Under the pieces are notes generated by a model. It searched no databases and was not told the origin of the DNA. It saw nothing but the letters and a program-made list of their open reading frames with translations. 14,250 nt of DNA from a virus (Duplodnaviria; Heunggongvirae; Uroviricota; Caudoviricetes): positions 1 to 14,250 of IMG/VR virus record IMGVR_UViG_3300015157_000014; one strand, given 5' to 3'. The number at the start of each line of letters is the position of its first letter. Positions within the stretch are counted from its first letter, which is position 1. Positions 133 through 5,416 of the stretch are shown here, one piece after another. Position numbers and translations under genes: made by a program.

Positions 133-1023
133 TCAGTAGTTATGTACTGAAGGAGGTAATTCTTTATTCTTAAGTCTCATCCATGCGGAAAGATTCTTTG
201 GTCCGTCTGGCTCATTGATATCAACATCTCGTGTGTGATTGATTAAAACGTCTCTCGCCATTCCGATAACATACGAGAATTCATGACCGTAGTCGTAGCA
301 TCTGCCTGAATAGTTCGATTGAATTTGTTTTAGCGCCGGATACAGTTCGCGGAATAATGCCTGTGAACGGTTGGCATAATCCCATAACCATACAAGGCTG
401 TTTGCTTCTTTTGCAGAAAGCTCGTTGGTTTTCTTCTCTTGTTTGCCGATGAATTCACCTTCAAGCACTACCCTGTGGATGTACTCTACGGCCAGCGGGA
501 TTTGTTCAATTGAAAGTTCATCAATGCTGTCAATACCAAAACGCTGATGAACCATATTGTATGCATCGTCATAGCGAAGTCCTTTCTTTCCTACCAGCAT
601 GTTTACTGCATCTCGTAGCGGTGTGCGTTCAGCTACTGAAGTTTTACCTCCAATAGCCTTCCTCTCTTGTGTGGCAGTAACCATTGCGTCATATGCACGG
701 ATAACCTTCAGCGCAAAGGCTGCGCTAATCCACATGGCGTAGGAGTAAACAAGCTCCTTGCACACGTAGGTTCCACCATATCGACCTTTCTTAGAAAGGA
801 CGGGATTCTTATTCTGCATATCCGCAGAATTAAAAATTTCATTAATCAATTCAATAGTTTCATTTCTACGCATGAAGAAAGCTGGCTGATGTTTTTCCTC
901 CTTTCCAGACGCTACATGAAGGTCATTAAGCGAGTAACGCCCCTCTGAATCCATATGAATCTTGACGTCAGAAATGATGATGCTATTAGTGCAATTTACA
1001 GTTGACTTTGCTAAGCTTGACAT
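133..1023 (-). CDS. ant: Antirepressor Ant-like protein (296 aa)
   Basis: Long ORF downstream of arc in the same orientation, close in size to P22 Ant (about 300 aa by recollection). GAGG Shine-Dalgarno about 9 nt upstream of the ATG. The N-terminal region looks like a phage antirepressor DNA-binding domain, but I did not verify the domain. Confidence 0.7.
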
Positions 1024-1055
1024 ATCAATAATACCTCGTAAGTTTTGTTGATACC

Positions 1056-1096
1056 GAAGCCCTGACTGTTACAGCAGTTGGGGCTTCAACGTTTTT
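1056..1096 (+). terminator. Plus-strand hairpin plus T-run; candidate terminator of a sar-like antisense RNA
   Basis: Extended stem 1056..1087 (gaagccc.../...gggcttc with inner actg/cagt pairing), then aacg and TTTTT (1092..1096) on the plus strand. The minus strand has no U-run after it, so it is orientation-specific. The T-run is 4 nt away from the stem, which weakens the call. Confidence 0.3.
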
Positions 1097-1355
1097 CCAC
1101 TTCATTTTGAATTTGCTTAAGTAGCATATTTGTCTCGTCAAGCCTCTTGTTAATACGGTCAAGGCTTTCTACTAAATCGTTATGTGCATGTGATACTTCG
1201 TAATTTGAGACTGATTTTTTTTCCTCTATCGTCTTTGTCAATCGTTCCCCTGATTGATACATATTGATTAACGATGTAAAAATCACGAGCAAGCAAACTA
1301 CAATGATTGCGCCAGACAAAAATTGTAAAGAACGATCAAGCAATGACACCTTCAT
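1086..1355 (-). CDS. Hypothetical small membrane protein (89 aa): one N-terminal transmembrane helix plus C-terminal coiled coil, inserted between arc and ant
   Basis: ATG overlaps the arc TGA stop (ATGA overlap at 1352..1355). GAGAGGGG Shine-Dalgarno-like sequence upstream within the arc 3' end. Hydrophobic stretch AIIVVCLLVIFTSLI followed by a heptad-like charged segment. Visibly AT-rich. Confidence 0.55.
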   Translation of the reverse strand: MKVSLLDRSLQFLSGAIIVVCLLVIFTSLINMYQSGERLTKTIEEKKSVSNYEVSHAHNDLVESLDRINKRLDETNMLLKQIQNEVEKR

Positions 1356-1524: not shown

Positions 1525-1545
1525 ATAGGTCCACCGTGGACCTAT
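1525..1545. promoter_or_regulatory. Mnt operator (O_mnt), perfect 21-bp palindrome
   Basis: ataggtccaccgtggacctat is a perfect inverted repeat about a central base. Its core aggtccac-c-gtggacct matches the P22 mnt operator as I recall it. It overlaps the predicted Pant transcription start. Confidence 0.85.
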
Positions 1546-1573
1546 TGAGAATATAGTAGAGTGCTTCTATCAT
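1545..1573 (+). promoter_or_regulatory. Pmnt promoter (drives mnt and probably the downstream cassette)
   Basis: Plus strand reads TTGAGA (1545..1550), a 17-nt spacer, then TATCAT (1568..1573). It overlaps Pant divergently and is covered by O_arc. GGGGTGA Shine-Dalgarno precedes the mnt ATG. Confidence 0.6.
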
Positions 1574-1600: not shown

Positions 1601-1849
1601 ATGGCTAGAGACGATCCGCACTTTAACTTCCGTATGCCTTTGGAAGTAAGAGAAAAATTGAAATTAAGAGCAGAGGCTAACGGAAGGTCAATGAACTCTG
1701 AGTTATTACAAATCGTTCAGGATGCTCTCTCAAAGCCATCACCGATTGCAGGCTATCGAGACGAAGCTGAACGCTTGGCTGATCAGCAAGCAGAAATTGT
1801 TAAGAAGATGGTGTTTGAAACCCTGAAAAAAATGTACGAGACCAGATAG
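1601..1849 (+). CDS. mnt: Mnt repressor (ribbon-helix-helix; maintenance of lysogeny, represses Pant), 82 aa
   Basis: Translation MARDDPHFNFRMPLEVREKLKLRAEANGRSMNSELLQIVQDALSKPSP... is near-identical to P22 Mnt as I recall it. Divergent from arc across the operator region. Confidence 0.9.
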   Translation: MARDDPHFNFRMPLEVREKLKLRAEANGRSMNSELLQIVQDALSKPSPIAGYRDEAERLADQQAEIVKKMVFETLKKMYETR

Positions 1850-1891
1850 GTCAATGTTTGTTCGTTGATATAAAATAACAAGGTATACATT

Positions 1892-2491
1892 GTGATTGAG
1901 ATAGGCGTTATGGCCATCCTGAATCAAGAGCCAGGAAAAATTGAAAACGTTTTTTCTGACATATCAACATCTATCGAGCGTTCAATTTCAGACTTTGATC
2001 GCAGTCATAGCGGCTCTTTGTCTAAAAAACAGGCTTCTGAAGCTCTTAGCAAGATCTACTGCGTTATGTCACCTGTAGAGGAAGTTTGCAAAAAGTACAT
2101 TACATTCATTGACATATTAAGTAATGGTACGGAAGAAGATATTTCCTCACTTGATATTCAACATGACGATGTAGATATGTTGAACGATCAAATATCTAAG
2201 CTTGATTATGGTATCGCGAAACTGTTGTATACCTTCTTCATCGCTGAGAACAGCGATGCGTGGAAGCCCCATATGTCAACTCTTACAACAATGAAAAACC
2301 ACTCAATAAATACTTTTATAGAATACAAAAGGCTAACTATGGGGCTTGTGACGCTAGCAATGCAGCACATACCACTATCATATGCTGAACCTGAAGAGTT
2401 CACTGAAGAAGAGTTGGCTTCATTCAAGAAATCAGTTGAAGATTCACATAAAAGATTTGGCATGGAAGCACCAAAATGGAAAACCGCATAA
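1892..2491 (+). CDS. Hypothetical protein (199 aa; 193 aa if the ATG at 1910 is used), acidic, no transmembrane segment; first gene of the accessory cassette
   Basis: Long ORF in visibly AT-rich DNA, directly downstream of mnt with no terminator seen in between. Its 3' end overlaps the next ORF by 16 nt. Start is ambiguous (GTG at 1892 or ATG at 1910). No recognisable motif. Confidence 0.55.
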   Translation: MIEIGVMAILNQEPGKIENVFSDISTSIERSISDFDRSHSGSLSKKQASEALSKIYCVMSPVEEVCKKYITFIDILSNGTEEDISSLDIQHDDVDMLNDQISKLDYGIAKLLYTFFIAENSDAWKPHMSTLTTMKNHSINTFIEYKRLTMGLVTLAMQHIPLSYAEPEEFTEEELASFKKSVEDSHKRFGMEAPKWKTA

Positions 2492-2895
2492 GCATTGTTG
2501 TAGATGCAGCGGCTGGACCATTAGAACAATACTTTGCGAAGGCTCTTGCAAACTACAAAAACAGAGGCACCGTTTCAGCTTATCTTGGTAAGATTGGTGG
2601 GTTTGAGAGAAACCATCACGCCGTCTTATCGGGAATTTACAAGTCGCACATCAGGATCCCTGGAGTAGATGATCCTTGGTTAAAAACAACGCCAATACAT
2701 CGTAGAGTTAGCGATAACTTTTTGATATTTGCGGTACACAACACATATCCAATTCATATCCAGATCATTGCTATCATTAAACCTGATGGTCATGAGAAGG
2801 TAAAAAAACTATTGCCAGCCATCATTGATATAACTGAAAAAAGATTCCAATCTCTAAATGAGAGGGAGCTTAACTCGTTGATTTCATACAAATAA
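2476..2895 (+). CDS. Hypothetical basic protein (139 aa) with a possible RelE/YafQ-like toxin-fold signature
   Basis: ATG preceded by GGAAG about 7 nt upstream; overlaps the 199-aa ORF by 16 nt. The segment GIYKSH...DDPW...HRR...FLIFAVH...IQIIAIIKPDGHE loosely resembles the YafQ/RelE C-terminal pattern (YKDH...PDWILIY...LLRFERTGTH). This rests on weak motif similarity only. Confidence 0.55.
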   Translation: MENRISIVVDAAAGPLEQYFAKALANYKNRGTVSAYLGKIGGFERNHHAVLSGIYKSHIRIPGVDDPWLKTTPIHRRVSDNFLIFAVHNTYPIHIQIIAIIKPDGHEKVKKLLPAIIDITEKRFQSLNERELNSLISYK

Positions 2896-2917
2896 AATAT
2901 CAACTAAGGGGGTTAGT

Positions 2918-3247
2918 GTGCTTGAATGGTTTCTGTTGGCTGCATTAGTCGTTTCTGGTTTGGTGTATGAGTATCGAATGCACTCTCTAACAAAAAAAAT
3001 AGGAATTCTAGAAAACGAATATTGTGCTCTCAAATCCTCACTGGAACGTGATCAAGGAGACTTAAAAATCTCTCTGTCTAGCATTGAGCGTTCTATAGAG
3101 AGCCTAGAGGATAAGGTTGATCGTATAAAGAATGAGGATATTCATGATATTAAGGACGACATATCCTTCTTAAAATCTTGGTTGAAAAATGTTGGGAAAA
3201 TTGCCACATCAACACGAGATAAGCTCAATCCATCCATGGATGACTAA
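2918..3247 (+). CDS. Hypothetical small membrane protein (109 aa): N-terminal transmembrane helix plus coiled coil
   Basis: GTG start with strong AAGGGGG Shine-Dalgarno 5 nt upstream. Hydrophobic N-terminus WFLLAALVVSGLV, then a heptad-like charged region. Its stop abuts the gp16 stop on the opposite strand (TAATTA). Confidence 0.55.
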   Translation: MLEWFLLAALVVSGLVYEYRMHSLTKKIGILENEYCALKSSLERDQGDLKISLSSIERSIESLEDKVDRIKNEDIHDIKDDISFLKSWLKNVGKIATSTRDKLNPSMDD

Positions 3248-5416
3248 TTACTCCTGTGCCATTCCGCTTAGCGATGCCACAATTCCAGCCCTTGCTAAAC
3301 GCTGGAACTCTTCGTTTCCTAGTGCCTCGCGTATTGCTTTTACGGCGGCCTTATTTGCCATAAATCTGCGTTCCGCCGCCGCTAATGCACCATCACTTGC
3401 CCCAACCTTAACTGCCTTTGTTGCCTCTTGAACAGCCTTTTCAATAGCGTAACGACCGCTTCTAGTTGCGGATAATTTCGCTATCGCTCCTTTTGCCATT
3501 GCATCAATTGCTCCACCTGCAGCGCCACCCGCTATTGCTCCAATAACGCCTCCTCCAGAGAACCCTGCGATAGTGCCAGTAGTTCTAAAAGCGCCAGACA
3601 ATGCGCTCTCTAAAACTGGATGAAGGCCATTCTCAAGAGTGCTAATGGCTGGCATAGATCGCCCTGTCTGTTCAACATATCGAAGTGGCTTTGTTGCTGC
3701 TCTTGCAAGTTCTCCGTATGAACTTGTAATCCTGCCAAGTTCTGGAGAATATCGACTAATTGCCTTCACGTTTTGTGGGGTAAGAATAGTCGCGATATGC
3801 TTAATTCCAGCCTCTTCAGACTTACCTCCGCGTACCCCTTGCGACATTGCATCTTGTAATATTGATGCAATTGCTGGCGCGCGTTCCGACTCAGGTAGGG
3901 CGCTTATTATTTTATGGAACTGACCTGTTCCACTTTTTGCTGAGCCCTGTAACGCCTTAGAGCCATTATTTACCAACTGATCAGTTGCAAGGTCTCTGCC
4001 AAACGCTGCTTCAGCCTGTTCTTGTGCTGTAAATCTTGCCTTTGACAGGTCATTAGCTTTTTGCCAGTCATCAAGAAAACCGCCATTTTGAGCCATTATG
4101 CGCATATCTTCCGTTGCTGCATCACGAAGCTCAGCCATGCGCCTTGCCGTATTTGCCTCACCAGACCTTATATACTTCTGCTCTGCGTCAGCAAGTTTAC
4201 TTCGCCATGCCTTCATGGCATCAAACGTGATTCCTTTTTTACCAGTTTTAGCATAAGCAGATGCGAATTGTTTCATCTCAGGAGTTAGCGGCATGCCAGC
4301 CAAAATATCACCCTGAATTGTAGCGTTCAGGTTTGACATTCTGGCCTTTGCGTCAGGCATCGTGGAGCGGACGCTATCCCATGCGGCCTTTTCTGAATTT
4401 TTCATTTTATCAATGCTTGCCAAAACCCTCTGTTTTATGGCTGCACTTTTTTCTGATGCAGTTCCTGCTTCAGCCCCAAACTCATCCAATGCTGAGTTAA
4501 ATTTCGACTCTATTTCACTGAATGCTTTGGTGTGTGCATCCTGTGTAATTCCGGGCTTTGACGCCAGAATCCCCTCCGCCTGAGCAAGACCACGACTACC
4601 TGATCTCATGCCAGGAGTTAATGCGTTGATATCTATTCCAGCAGTATCTGCTGCTTTTGCTATTTCGTCTGACACATTAGCTGACTGTCTGGCAATAATC
4701 TCTCTTCCTGTACCAGACTTTGCCATTTTCGAAACATCAGCAGCGGAATTTATTGCCCCGCCACCAAGAACTTGAGGTGATTTAGAGGTTAAGATCCTTC
4801 CAGCCCCAGAAAGTATCCCCTGAGCACCAATATTGATACCACCGTTAATGGCAGCATTTTGTGCAAAGTCGCCCTCCTGATTTGCAGCATCAGCAAGAGA
4901 ACCTGCAATCATGTTTCCTGCGGAACCGATATCTCCAGCGAGCTTTGCTGGCGCTCCAGCAGCTTTTGCCGCTGTGCCAATTGGCAGGAGATACCCACCA
5001 ATTGTTTCACCGGCTTGCGCATAAGGGTCTGTCGGTCGATCGACTGGACGATAGACATCATCCAAAACCTTTGGGCCACCAAGCCCCTGGCTGATTGCAT
5101 TAATCAGACTTGCGCCACCCTGCAATACGTCAAATGGTATGTTTACCAGACCACGACCAGCCTGTTCTGCAATTTGCCCTGCACTTTGACCACCTGTGAG
5201 CCAATCACCAGCTTGTTGCATCAATGATGGTTCTTCTTTCTGCTGCTGAGGTGGAGGGTATGCTGCATAAAACTGATCTCTTGCTTCAGCCCATTTGTCA
5301 CCAGCCTTAGGGGCAACAACCTCATCAAAATATTGCGCTTGAGCCTGTGCTTTCTGTTCTTCAGTTAACGCCTGATACTGTGGAGAAGCGATAACATCTT
5401 TCCATGCTTTAGCCAT
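3248..5416 (-). CDS. Ejection (internal virion) protein, gp16-like, 722 aa
   Basis: Last gene of the minus-strand late operon, at the position of P22 gene 16. Ala/Gly/Gln-rich composition typical of podovirus ejection proteins. Start overlaps the gp20 stop (TAATG). Confidence 0.8.

What the first reader, a model, noticed from the sequence alone, without database searches (positions are those of the whole stretch)
1892..3247. Three-gene accessory cassette in the sieA-equivalent slot between mnt and gp16
Three tightly packed plus-strand ORFs (199 aa acidic, 139 aa basic, 109 aa membrane/coiled-coil) fill the gap between mnt and the convergent end of the late operon. In P22 this position holds sieA (superinfection exclusion), and it is a known variable moron slot in P22-like phages. 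The DNA is visibly AT-richer than the flanking structural genes (by eye, not computed), suggesting horizontal acquisition. The cassette is co-directional with mnt and I see no terminator between them, so it is probably transcribed from Pmnt in the lysogen. During lytic growth the late transcript runs antisense across it. That pattern fits a prophage-encoded exclusion or defence module. I recognise none of the three proteins.
Basis: partly seen in the sequence, partly recalled or inferred. Interest (0 to 1): 0.75.

Follow-up and report, generated by a model that had tools for sequence, protein, structure and literature searches.

The report
Prophage YafO toxin–antitoxin pair plus hkcB
The "three-gene cassette" is really two separate things: a rare, mobile toxin–antitoxin-like gene pair (a YafO-family RNA-cutting toxin with an uncharacterised helical partner) that keeps turning up just downstream of prophage repressor genes, and hkcB, a small membrane protein gene of unknown function that always sits next to the DNA-ejection gene 16.

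Summary
The three ORFs exist as described. They are AT-rich (38% vs 48-51% GC), co-directional with mnt, and no terminator-like site separates them from it. They are not one cassette.

**ORF1 + ORF2 (1892-2895)** form a mobile two-gene module.
- ORF2 (139 aa, pI 9.6) passes the Pfam YafO_toxin threshold, and NCBI's PGAP already names it so.
- ORF1 (199 aa, pI 4.9) is an all-helical protein with no known family. It overlaps ORF2 by 16 nt.
- The same pair occurs alone in Pectobacterium and Xenorhabdus chromosomes.
- In other prophages it lies directly after mnt or cI.
- All four far-diverged ORF1 relatives looked up are followed by a YafO-family gene.
- A second ORF1 subfamily has a different C-terminal tail and pairs with a different small protein (phrog_5954).

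**ORF3 is hkcB.** It is the HK620 allele, joined to CUS-3-like DNA exactly at its start codon. In 57 of 57 viral contigs it abuts gene 16. Only 3 of those carry ORF1/2.

No SieA homologue and no PADLOC defence hit were found.

The best reading is a lysogen-expressed type II toxin–antitoxin pair with a new kind of antitoxin. Whether it serves defence or prophage addiction is untested. All three genes are already deposited: ORF1 and ORF3 as hypothetical proteins (hkcB by name in phage records), ORF2 as a YafO-family toxin. Interest is moderate.

The parts
1525..1545 (.). Perfect 10+10 palindrome ATAGGTCCAC-c-GTGGACCTAT. This is the Mnt operator by resemblance to P22 Omnt (from my own knowledge). 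It is context for the module, not part of it.
   Evidence: (I4)
1545..1573 (+). Pmnt-like sigma-70 promoter (TTGAGA-17-TATCAT), overlapping the divergent Pant-like promoter (1578-1550, TTGACA-17-TATATT).
1601..1849 (+). mnt, the maintenance repressor (Arc + Repressor_Mnt domains). It is the upstream, co-directional gene.
1866..1876 (+). Extended -10-like element TGaTATAAAAT just upstream of the AAGG ribosome-binding site of ORF1. Similar -10-like boxes precede ORF1 homologues in Pectobacterium, Xenorhabdus, L008, L015 and L033. This is a possible promoter of the module itself (inferred).
1892..2491 (+). ORF1: 199 aa, acidic (pI 4.9), all-helical, presumed antitoxin. Invariant motif ERSxSDFDRSH and W-x-PH. 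The C-terminal tail (about residues 170-199) co-varies with the partner family. Belongs to phrog_18235, with no Pfam or NCBIfam match.
2476..2895 (+). ORF2: 139 aa, basic (pI 9.6), YafO-family toxin (PF13957, 45.1 bits against a cut-off of 25; phrog_1651). Its start overlaps ORF1 by 16 nt. H58, R77 and H106 are conserved with K-12 YafO.
2900..2920 (.). Mosaic joint. The window follows CUS-3 up to AACTAAGGGGGTTAGTGTG and follows HK620 from the hkcB start codon onwards. This junction sequence is shared by all three phages.
2918..3247 (+). hkcB (HK620 allele, 98% aa identity): 109 aa with an N-terminal hydrophobic anchor and a coiled-coil-like region with a conserved C-terminus. phrog_5962, function unknown. 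It is a unit separate from ORF1/2.
3248..5416 (-). Gene 16-type DNA transfer (ejection) protein. It is convergent with hkcB and abuts it. No terminator-like structure follows its stop on the minus strand.

Best explanation
Window 1892-2895 is a self-contained, horizontally mobile two-gene toxin-antitoxin-type module inserted between mnt and hkcB in the ant moron of a CUS-3/HK620-like P22-type prophage of E. coli. ORF2 is a divergent YafO-family toxin. By family membership it should be an mRNA endoribonuclease that shuts down translation. ORF1 is its cognate neutralising partner: translationally coupled, acidic, and a four-helix bundle followed by a C-terminal helix or tail that I infer binds the toxin. 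The pair would be transcribed in the lysogen by read-through from Pmnt, from its own -10-like element, or from both. While ORF1 is continuously made, the toxin stays silent. If ORF1 synthesis stops or ORF1 is displaced (superinfection that shuts off host and prophage transcription, or loss of the prophage), the toxin is freed and arrests the cell. That gives either abortive infection or prophage addiction. ORF3 (hkcB) is not part of this module. It is a membrane-anchored coiled-coil protein that travels with gene 16, and its function is unknown.

Shown: the gene structure, family membership of ORF2, the conserved pairing, the mobility of the pair, the independence of hkcB, and the recurrent position after prophage repressors.

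Inferred: toxicity, neutralisation through the C-terminal tail, expression in the lysogen, and the biological role.
For: **ORF2 is in the YafO family.**
- It scores 45.1 bits against Pfam YafO_toxin (cut-off 25).
- PGAP names the identical protein a YafO family toxin.
- hhalign against K-12 YafO gives E 4.5e-5.
- H58, R77 and H106 are invariant across the clade and in K-12 YafO.

**The pair has toxin-antitoxin anatomy.**
- A 16-nt overlap is conserved in Pectobacterium and Xenorhabdus.
- pI is 4.9 for ORF1 and 9.6 for ORF2.

**The pair moves as a two-gene unit.**
- It sits alone between an ABC-transporter operon and gcvP in Pectobacterium, and between slt and an ABC-F gene in Xenorhabdus.
- DNA similarity between the window and Pectobacterium is confined to 1909-2876.

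**The pairing survives deep divergence.**
- Remote ORF1 relatives P0043, P0044, P0047 and P0048 (E 1e-4 to 1e-7) are each followed by a Pfam YafO_toxin protein.

**The C-terminal tail of ORF1 tracks the partner.**
- Subfamily A (tail ..SHKxxGxxxPxW) always pairs with YafO.
- Subfamily B (tail ..HPDWVKxGDDFVxW) always pairs with the phrog_5954 family.

**The pair recurs directly downstream of, and co-oriented with, lysogeny repressors.**
- After mnt in the window/CUS-3, L033, L008 and L015.
- After a cI-type S24 repressor in L010-12, L017 and L034.

**Other support.**
- No terminator lies between mnt and ORF1.
- Both genes are under purifying selection.
- The pair is intact at 99% identity or more in 44 E. 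coli genomes.
- hkcB is independent of the pair.
Against: - No experiment has been done. Toxicity and neutralisation are inferred from family membership and synteny.
- ORF2 is only 19% identical to K-12 YafO (BLASTP E 0.025). It falls far below the NCBIfam equivalog cut-off (14 against 153 bits).
- The AlphaFold model of ORF2 was unusable (pLDDT 42), so no fold confirmation exists.
- ORF1 is unusually large for a type II antitoxin. It has no detectable DNA-binding fold and no relation to YafN.
- Its invariant N-terminal motif has no assigned role.
- There is no match to any PADLOC defence model.
- The biochemical mode of YafO itself is debated, in particular its ribosome dependence (PMC8546651).
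- Transcription in the lysogen was not measured.
Confidence: 0.62

Rival explanations
1. One reading: all three ORFs form one co-acquired exclusion or defence cassette that functionally replaces sieA.
For: The three ORFs are tightly packed, co-directional, similarly AT-rich (0.38-0.39 each) and without internal terminators. They occupy the sieA slot (PMC2629481, PMC10883804).
Against: ORF1/2 occur without hkcB in Pectobacterium, Xenorhabdus, L017, L018, L021 and L033. hkcB occurs without ORF1/2 in 54 of 57 IMG/VR loci, in HK620 and in epsilon34. In E. coli, 117 genomes carry hkcB and 44 carry ORF1/2. A recombination joint sits at the hkcB start codon. There is no SieA similarity and no SieA motif.
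Confidence: 0.04
2. ORF1/ORF2 is a purely selfish addiction or stabilisation module (post-segregational killing that penalises loss of the prophage or island), with no anti-phage role.
For: The pair has classic type II toxin-antitoxin anatomy. It also sits as a stand-alone island in Pectobacterium and Xenorhabdus chromosomes, where no phage context exists. There is no PADLOC match.
Against: Seven independent prophage contexts place the pair immediately after a lysogeny repressor (mnt or cI). That is the slot typical of exclusion genes such as rexAB and sieA (slot comparison from PMC2629481). This favours, but does not prove, a role that depends on expression in the lysogen and is directed at other phages.
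Confidence: 0.3
3. ORF1 is not a simple antitoxin but a sensor or regulator. Its conserved helical bundle (motif ERSxSDFDRSH) would bind a phage or cellular trigger and release the toxin, so activation is direct rather than by antitoxin decay. This is a refinement of the best explanation rather than an exclusive rival.
For: ORF1 is about twice the size of usual antitoxins. Its N-terminal bundle is conserved across two subfamilies that pair with unrelated partners. The invariant polar motif is dispensable for pairing with YafO, because remote members lack it yet keep the YafO partner. That implies a second function.
Confidence: 0.25
4. hkcB (ORF3) is a SieA-like exclusion factor. It would be a bitopic inner-membrane protein that interferes with the gene 16/20 ejection conduit of incoming HK620/CUS-3-type phages.
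For: It has an N-terminal hydrophobic anchor followed by basic residues, then a coiled-coil-like region. It abuts gene 16 in 57 of 57 loci. It lies in the same inter-16/9 region as sieA, and SieA is known to act on gp16/gp20 (PMC10883804).
Against: It has no sequence relation to SieA and no SieA motif. It has a single weak hydrophobic segment (KD19 1.48), whereas SieA is polytopic. The hkcB allele does not strictly co-vary with the gp16 C-terminal type (12 of 35 HK-type hkcB loci carry a CUS-type gp16). Adjacency alone may be simple linkage. Its expression state is unknown.
Confidence: 0.18
5. The ORFs are decaying or non-functional passenger DNA.
For: The region is AT-rich, and ORF1 and ORF3 have no known function.
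Against: Full-length conservation extends across genera, with saturated synonymous and low non-synonymous divergence. Motifs are invariant. Copies are 99% or more identical and intact in 44 genomes.
Confidence: 0.03

Closest known systems
E. coli K-12 YafN-YafO type II toxin-antitoxin system (dinB-yafN-yafO-yafP operon)
   Same: The toxin belongs to the same Pfam family (PF13957), is of similar size and is basic. Conserved His/Arg/His positions align. The partner gene lies immediately upstream. By family, the expected action is endoribonucleolytic inhibition of translation (PMC8546651, PMC11869752).
   Different: Identity to YafO is only 19%, below the NCBIfam YafO equivalog cut-off. The partner is not YafN or Phd/YefM-like. 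It is a 199-aa helical-bundle protein with no family assignment. The pair lies in a prophage moron downstream of mnt, not in the SOS dinB operon.
P22 sieA (superinfection exclusion, inner-membrane protein between genes 16 and 9)
   Same: It occupies the same genomic slot in a P22-like prophage and is plausibly expressed in the lysogen (PMC10883804, PMC2629481).
   Different: There is no homology. The SieA motif FxRYPxEAxxFNK is absent from all three proteins. ORF1 and ORF2 are soluble, and hkcB has at most one membrane segment.
Phage lambda rexAB and other genes co-transcribed with prophage repressors
   Same: ORF1-family pairs lie directly downstream of cI-type repressors in Yersinia and other lambdoid prophages, and downstream of mnt here. 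A two-gene module would be expressed with the repressor in lysogens.
   Different: The proteins are unrelated. The mechanism would be an RNase toxin rather than the membrane-depolarising mechanism I recall for RexB (my own knowledge). No exclusion phenotype has been shown.
Promiscuous antitoxin domains that pair with unrelated toxins (e.g. Panacea/PanA, NetFlax network; bioRxiv 10.1101/2023.03.22.533649)
   Same: One conserved partner domain (the ORF1 N-terminal bundle) is combined with two toxin-like families that show no detectable relation: YafO-type and phrog_5954-type (hhalign probability 0.1%).
   Different: Only two partner families were seen, and the ORF1 family is very small. There is no sequence relation to DUF4065/Panacea, since no Pfam hit was found. 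The toxicity of the second partner family is unknown.
hkcB of coliphage HK620 / gene 14 of Salmonella phage epsilon34
   Same: ORF3 is 98% identical to HK620 HkcB and about 50% identical to the CUS-3/epsilon34 allele. It has the same position, convergent with gene 16.
   Different: Nothing differs. It is a member of this family, whose function has never been determined (PMC2629481).

Membership tests
YafO toxin family (Pfam PF13957) | Score above the Pfam gathering threshold over most of the domain | tested here: met
   45.1 bits against a cut-off of 25; residues 26-122 match profile positions 2-98 of 101. Homologues are pre-annotated PF13957.
YafO toxin family (Pfam PF13957) | Orthology to E. 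coli YafO (NCBIfam equivalog PRK09885) | tested here: not met
   14.2 bits against a cut-off of 153; 19% identity, BLASTP E 0.025. It is a family member but not an orthologue.
YafO toxin family (Pfam PF13957) | Conserved polar residues shared with characterised YafO | tested here: met
   G38, H58, R77, L83, P103 and H106 are invariant across window ORF2, six relatives and K-12 YafO. Their catalytic role is inferred, not known.
YafO toxin family (Pfam PF13957) | Growth inhibition through endoribonuclease activity on mRNA | not testable with these tools
   This needs expression and RNA-cleavage assays. A structure-based check failed (model pLDDT 42).
YafN-YafO system | Upstream antitoxin of the YafN (Phd/YefM) type | tested here: not met
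   hhalign of the ORF1 family against YafN gives probability 0.17%. ORF1 has no Pfam hit, and its model is an all-helical bundle.
Type II toxin-antitoxin module (generic) | Two small adjacent co-directional genes, overlapping or closely spaced, that move together | tested here: met
   A 16-nt overlap is conserved in Pectobacterium and Xenorhabdus. The pair is found in at least 8 distinct genomic contexts.
Type II toxin-antitoxin module (generic) | Acidic antitoxin and basic toxin | tested here: met
   pI 4.9 and 9.6.
Type II toxin-antitoxin module (generic) | Antitoxin carries a DNA-binding domain (RHH, HTH, AbrB or Phd) for autoregulation | tested here: not met
Type II toxin-antitoxin module (generic) | Toxin toxicity neutralised by direct binding of the antitoxin protein | not testable with these tools
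   No complex prediction or experiment was available. The only indirect support is that the ORF1 C-terminal tail co-varies with the partner family.
SieA superinfection exclusion proteins | Sequence homology, polytopic inner-membrane topology and the motif FxRYPxEAxxFNK | tested here: not met
   The motif, as given in PMC10883804, is absent from all three translations. ORF1 and ORF2 lack hydrophobic segments, and hkcB has one weak one.
Known anti-phage defence systems (PADLOC-DB v2) | Significant match to a PADLOC model | tested here: not met
   Only weak hits (E 0.002 or higher) appear: coiled-coil-type for ORF3/hkcB, and PtuB at E 0.005 for ORF1. ORF2 and the relatives tested have none.
HkcB family (phrog_5962) | Full-length homology and a position convergent with gene 16 | tested here: met
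   phrog_5962 at E 3.6e-61; 98% identity to HK620 HkcB; 57 of 57 loci abut gp16.

The most novel reading that the evidence does not exclude
The ORF1 family is a new, modular sensor-antitoxin. It would have a conserved helical-bundle domain with an invariant ERSxSDFDRSH motif, fused to exchangeable C-terminal tails that neutralise at least two toxin families showing no detectable relation to each other (YafO-type and phrog_5954-type). Temperate phages would have captured it repeatedly, directly downstream of their lysogeny repressors (mnt or cI), as an abortive-infection system that current defence catalogues do not contain.
Probability: 0.25. Interest if true: 0.7.

Novelty: new variant of a known kind. 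Interest (0 to 1): 0.45.

Why it matters
If the pair is confirmed as a toxin–antitoxin system, four things follow.
- It would define a new antitoxin family for YafO-type toxins. YafO is itself a poorly understood toxin family with no solved structure that I could find by sequence search.
- It would show one partner domain serving two toxin families with no detectable relation to each other.
- It would add a candidate prophage-encoded defence or addiction system carried by the CUS-3-type prophages of K1 extraintestinal pathogenic E. coli strains such as UTI89, IHE3034 and APEC O2:K1.
- Its repeated placement right after mnt or cI gives a simple genomic rule for finding lysogen-expressed accessory modules.

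It also clarifies the anatomy of the P22-like 'ant moron'. hkcB is a constant companion of gene 16, which makes it a separate and easily testable candidate for an injection-related or exclusion function.

The practical gain is moderate. The genes are already in databases, the toxin is already flagged by PGAP, and nothing here is mechanistically unprecedented.

Tried and rejected
- **AlphaFold model of ORF2** (8-sequence alignment). It gave pLDDT 42 and was unusable, so no fold search was run on it.
- **PDB sequence searches** for ORF2, the ORF1 profile and the second partner family. Nothing significant was found.
- **My impression that the 125-134-aa partner of ORF1 subfamily B is YafO-like.** It was rejected: hhalign probability 0.1%, no Pfam hit.
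- **ORF1 related to YafN.** It was rejected. A shared acidic T[DE][DE][DE][LF]xxFK patch is not significant.
- **HEPN-like Rx4-6H reading of the ORF1 motif.** The spacing does not fit (by inspection).
- **hkcB allele strictly matched to the gp16 allele.** This looked true with 4 phages. It was rejected with 57 loci, where 12 are HK-type hkcB with CUS-type gp16.
- **hkcB homologous to the 89-aa TM + coiled-coil ORF at 1086-1355.** It is not.
- **Palindrome at 1874-1897 as a conserved operator.** It is not conserved in the homologous upstream regions.
- **Literature searches** for the protein accessions and locus tags found no papers. The CUS-3 genome paper and the YafO characterisation paper are not held.
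- **Contig look-up of a truncated ORF1 variant** (P0015) returned nothing on record.
Full report
**1. Observation**

The window carries the immI-type region of a P22-like prophage.
- ant lies at 133-1023 (-), with KilA-N + P22_AR_C domains.
- An 89-aa ORF lies at 1086-1355 (-).
- arc ends at 1573 (-).
- Divergent Pant/Pmnt-like promoters and a perfect palindrome lie at 1525-1580.
- mnt lies at 1601-1849 (+), with Arc + Repressor_Mnt domains.

Three + strand ORFs follow.
- ORF1: 1892-2491, 199 aa.
- ORF2: 2476-2895, 139 aa.
- ORF3: 2918-3247, 109 aa.

They end against the stop codon of a convergent gene-16-type DNA transfer protein (3248-5416, phrog_770).

The physical description is correct.
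- pI is 4.9 for ORF1, 9.6 for ORF2 and 5.2 for ORF3.
- ORF3 has an N-terminal hydrophobic stretch and only coiled-coil-type weak hits.
- GC is 0.384 across 1892-3247, against 0.48 for gp16 and 0.51 for the rest of the late genes.
- No terminator-like site occurs between mnt and ORF1 or inside the block.
- The mnt-ORF1 spacer does not fold better than shuffles.
- Nothing terminator-like follows gene 16 on the minus strand. This fits the published view that PLate transcription crosses the ant moron towards the tailspike gene (PMC2629481).

**2. Identity of the DNA**

The region is 96.8% identical to phage CUS-3. There the three genes are deposited as two hypothetical proteins plus hkcB. It is 100% identical to a prophage of APEC O2:K1:H5 strain E19035. 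In that genome PGAP calls ORF2 a 'type II toxin-antitoxin system YafO family toxin' and calls ORF1 and ORF3 hypothetical. UTI89 and IHE3034 carry the same pair. The genes are therefore not new to the databases. No paper mentions their accessions.

**3. ORF2**

- Pfam YafO_toxin scores 45.1 bits against a gathering cut-off of 25, covering almost the whole profile.
- It belongs to phrog_1651.
- The NCBIfam YafO equivalog scores far below its cut-off.
- Identity to K-12 YafO is 19% (BLASTP E 0.025). A profile comparison gives E 4.5e-5.
- G38, H58, R77, L83, P103 and H106 are invariant across this clade and in K-12 YafO.

ORF2 is therefore a divergent member of the YafO family, not an orthologue. 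YafO is described as an endoribonuclease toxin that blocks translation. Its ribosome dependence has been questioned (PMC8546651, PMC11869752, PMC3337138). A structure prediction for ORF2 failed (pLDDT 42).

**4. ORF1**

ORF1 has no Pfam, NCBIfam or significant PADLOC match and belongs to phrog_18235.

The family is tiny.
- 25 clusters among 5.8 billion proteins.
- 23 representatives with E ≤ 1e-3 among 1.84 billion.
- 5 loci among 185,579 species genomes.
- 7 loci in IMG/VR.
- All members whose source organism is named are Enterobacterales or their phages.

Alignment shows an invariant ERSxSDFDRSH motif and a W-x-PH motif. The conserved AAGG ribosome-binding site sits upstream of the first start codon in four contexts. 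This favours the 199-aa form, although M7 is also conserved.

**5. ORF1 and ORF2 are one mobile unit**

- The same 199-aa + 139-aa pair, with the same 16-nt overlap, stands alone in Pectobacterium chromosomes between an ABC-transporter operon and gcvP. In Xenorhabdus it stands between slt and an ABC-F gene.
- Nucleotide similarity between the window and Pectobacterium is confined to 1909-2876.
- Synonymous sites are saturated (pS 0.79-0.94) while pN is 0.16-0.21, so both proteins are under purifying selection.
- Remote ORF1 relatives have lost the N-terminal motif but keep W-PH and a ..SHKxxGxxxPxW tail. Each is followed by a Pfam YafO_toxin protein. One lies after a cI-type S24 repressor (L017), one in a nin region (L018), one in a chromosome (L021) and one on a short contig (L020).
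- A P22-like IMG/VR contig (L033, 67% identity) has mnt, then ORF1, then the YafO gene, followed directly by a convergent 620-aa ORF in the gene-16 position. It has no hkcB.

**6. A second subfamily**

ORF1 relatives from Yersinia, Serratia and metagenomes share the N-terminal bundle and motif. They carry a different C-terminal tail (..HPDWVKxGDDFVxW). Each is followed by a 125-134-aa protein of phrog_5954. That protein shows no detectable similarity to YafO (hhalign probability 0.1%) and matches no Pfam, PDB or PADLOC entry.

The contexts of these pairs are as follows.
- Directly after cI in Yersinia lambdoid prophages (L010-12).
- Directly after an S24 repressor (L034).
- Directly after mnt in immI-like regions of two phages that are not P22-like (L008, L015).
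- Near integrases in Serratia.

The C-terminal tail therefore tracks the partner family. That is what one expects if the tail is the partner-binding element. This is an inference.

**7. ORF3 is hkcB and is a separate unit**

- It is 98% identical to HK620 HkcB but only about 50% identical to the CUS-3/epsilon34 allele.
- The window follows CUS-3 up to a shared AACTAAGGnGGTTnGTGTG junction. It switches to HK620-type sequence at the hkcB start codon.
- Of 57 hkcB loci in IMG/VR, all 57 abut a convergent gp16-like gene.
- Only 3 of them carry ORF1/2. The upstream neighbour otherwise varies: hkcC in 10, epsilon34 gene 15 in 12, and other genes in 32.
- In complete E. coli genomes, hkcB is in 117 and ORF1/2 in 44.
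- An apparent match between hkcB allele and gp16 allele did not hold. Twelve loci combine HK-type hkcB with CUS-type gp16.
- The function of HkcB is unknown (PMC2629481). It has no SieA similarity or motif.

**8. Mechanism proposed**

ORF1/ORF2 is most likely a type II toxin-antitoxin pair. The toxin is a YafO-family RNase. The antitoxin is a new helical protein that neutralises through its C-terminal tail.

Expression in the lysogen is inferred from four points.
- The pair is co-oriented with mnt.
- No terminator lies between them.
- A conserved -10-like element (TGaTATAAA, 1866-1874) precedes ORF1. Analogous boxes precede the homologues that lack mnt.
- The pair recurs directly downstream of lysogeny repressors in seven independent prophage contexts.

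The biological role is untested. It could be abortive infection or exclusion, or it could be prophage or island addiction. The repressor-adjacent position leans towards a lysogen-expressed anti-phage role. The stand-alone chromosomal copies and the lack of any PADLOC match lean towards a generic toxin-antitoxin module.

**9. Comparison and novelty**

- Closest known system: YafN-YafO. The toxin family is the same. The antitoxin, genomic context and regulation differ.
- It is not SieA.
- It resembles rexAB only in position.
- One partner domain pairing with two partner families that show no detectable relation to each other recalls promiscuous antitoxin domains (bioRxiv 10.1101/2023.03.22.533649). 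Only two partners were seen here.

Verdict: a new variant of a known kind. The single-cassette reading is wrong. The defence guess is plausible but unproven. Interest is moderate.

Noticed in passing
window 1025-1091 (+): sar antisense RNA of the immI region (Rfam RF00262, 63.6 bits against a gathering score of 43). Its terminator-like hairpin lies at 1056-1087 and is followed by a T-run.
   Followed up: partly
window 1086-1355 (-): An 89-aa ORF with a strong TM segment (KD19 2.79) and a coiled-coil-like region (phrog_27312) is inserted between arc and sar/ant. Its start overlaps the arc stop, so it would be co-expressed from Pant. Among 57 hkcB loci it appears only in L050, L063, L064 and L069. 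It is not homologous to hkcB.
   Followed up: partly
L008 2065-2457; L010 5621-5998; L015 5614-6000; L013 5681-6064; L034 3591-3995: An uncharacterised 125-134-aa protein family (phrog_5954; motifs PGRNKPSTGVS, HYHIGH, FGDWTS..VVHYQN, HPP) always follows ORF1-subfamily-B genes. It is a candidate new toxin family. It has no Pfam, PDB or PADLOC match and no detectable relation to YafO. In the Serratia assemblies the gene was not called.
   Followed up: partly
L010-L012 (Yersinia enterocolitica), L017, L034: ORF1-family pairs sit immediately downstream of cI-type (HTH_3 + Peptidase_S24) prophage repressors. This is the slot that rexAB occupies in lambda.
   Followed up: partly
window 3248-5416 vs L001 4161-6320 and L002 3347-5515: My local alignment gives CUS-3 and HK620 gp16 as 78% identical over 715 aa, and 68% over the last 250 aa. 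The SieA paper text states 26% (PMC10883804). The discrepancy is unexplained.
   Followed up: no
L001 2239-2768; L092 929-1458: CUS-3 and UTI89 carry two tandem mnt-like Arc-family genes upstream of ORF1. The window has a single mnt plus a divergent arc. The immI region is therefore itself mosaic among carriers of the pair.
   Followed up: no
window 2404-2430 (ORF1 residues 171-179) vs L016 2267-2296 (YafN C-terminus): A short acidic/aromatic patch is shared: TEEELASFK in ORF1 and TDDDFNDFK at the extreme C-terminus of YafN. It is not statistically significant, but it lies in the region proposed to bind the toxin.
   Followed up: partly
window 1971-2028 vs L008 1534-1591: A 58-nt patch is 83% identical at the DNA level between ORF1 and a homologue that is only 27-29% identical in protein overall. 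It encodes the invariant IERSISDFDRSH motif. The level fits amino-acid constraint, but a nucleic-acid-level element was not excluded.
   Followed up: no
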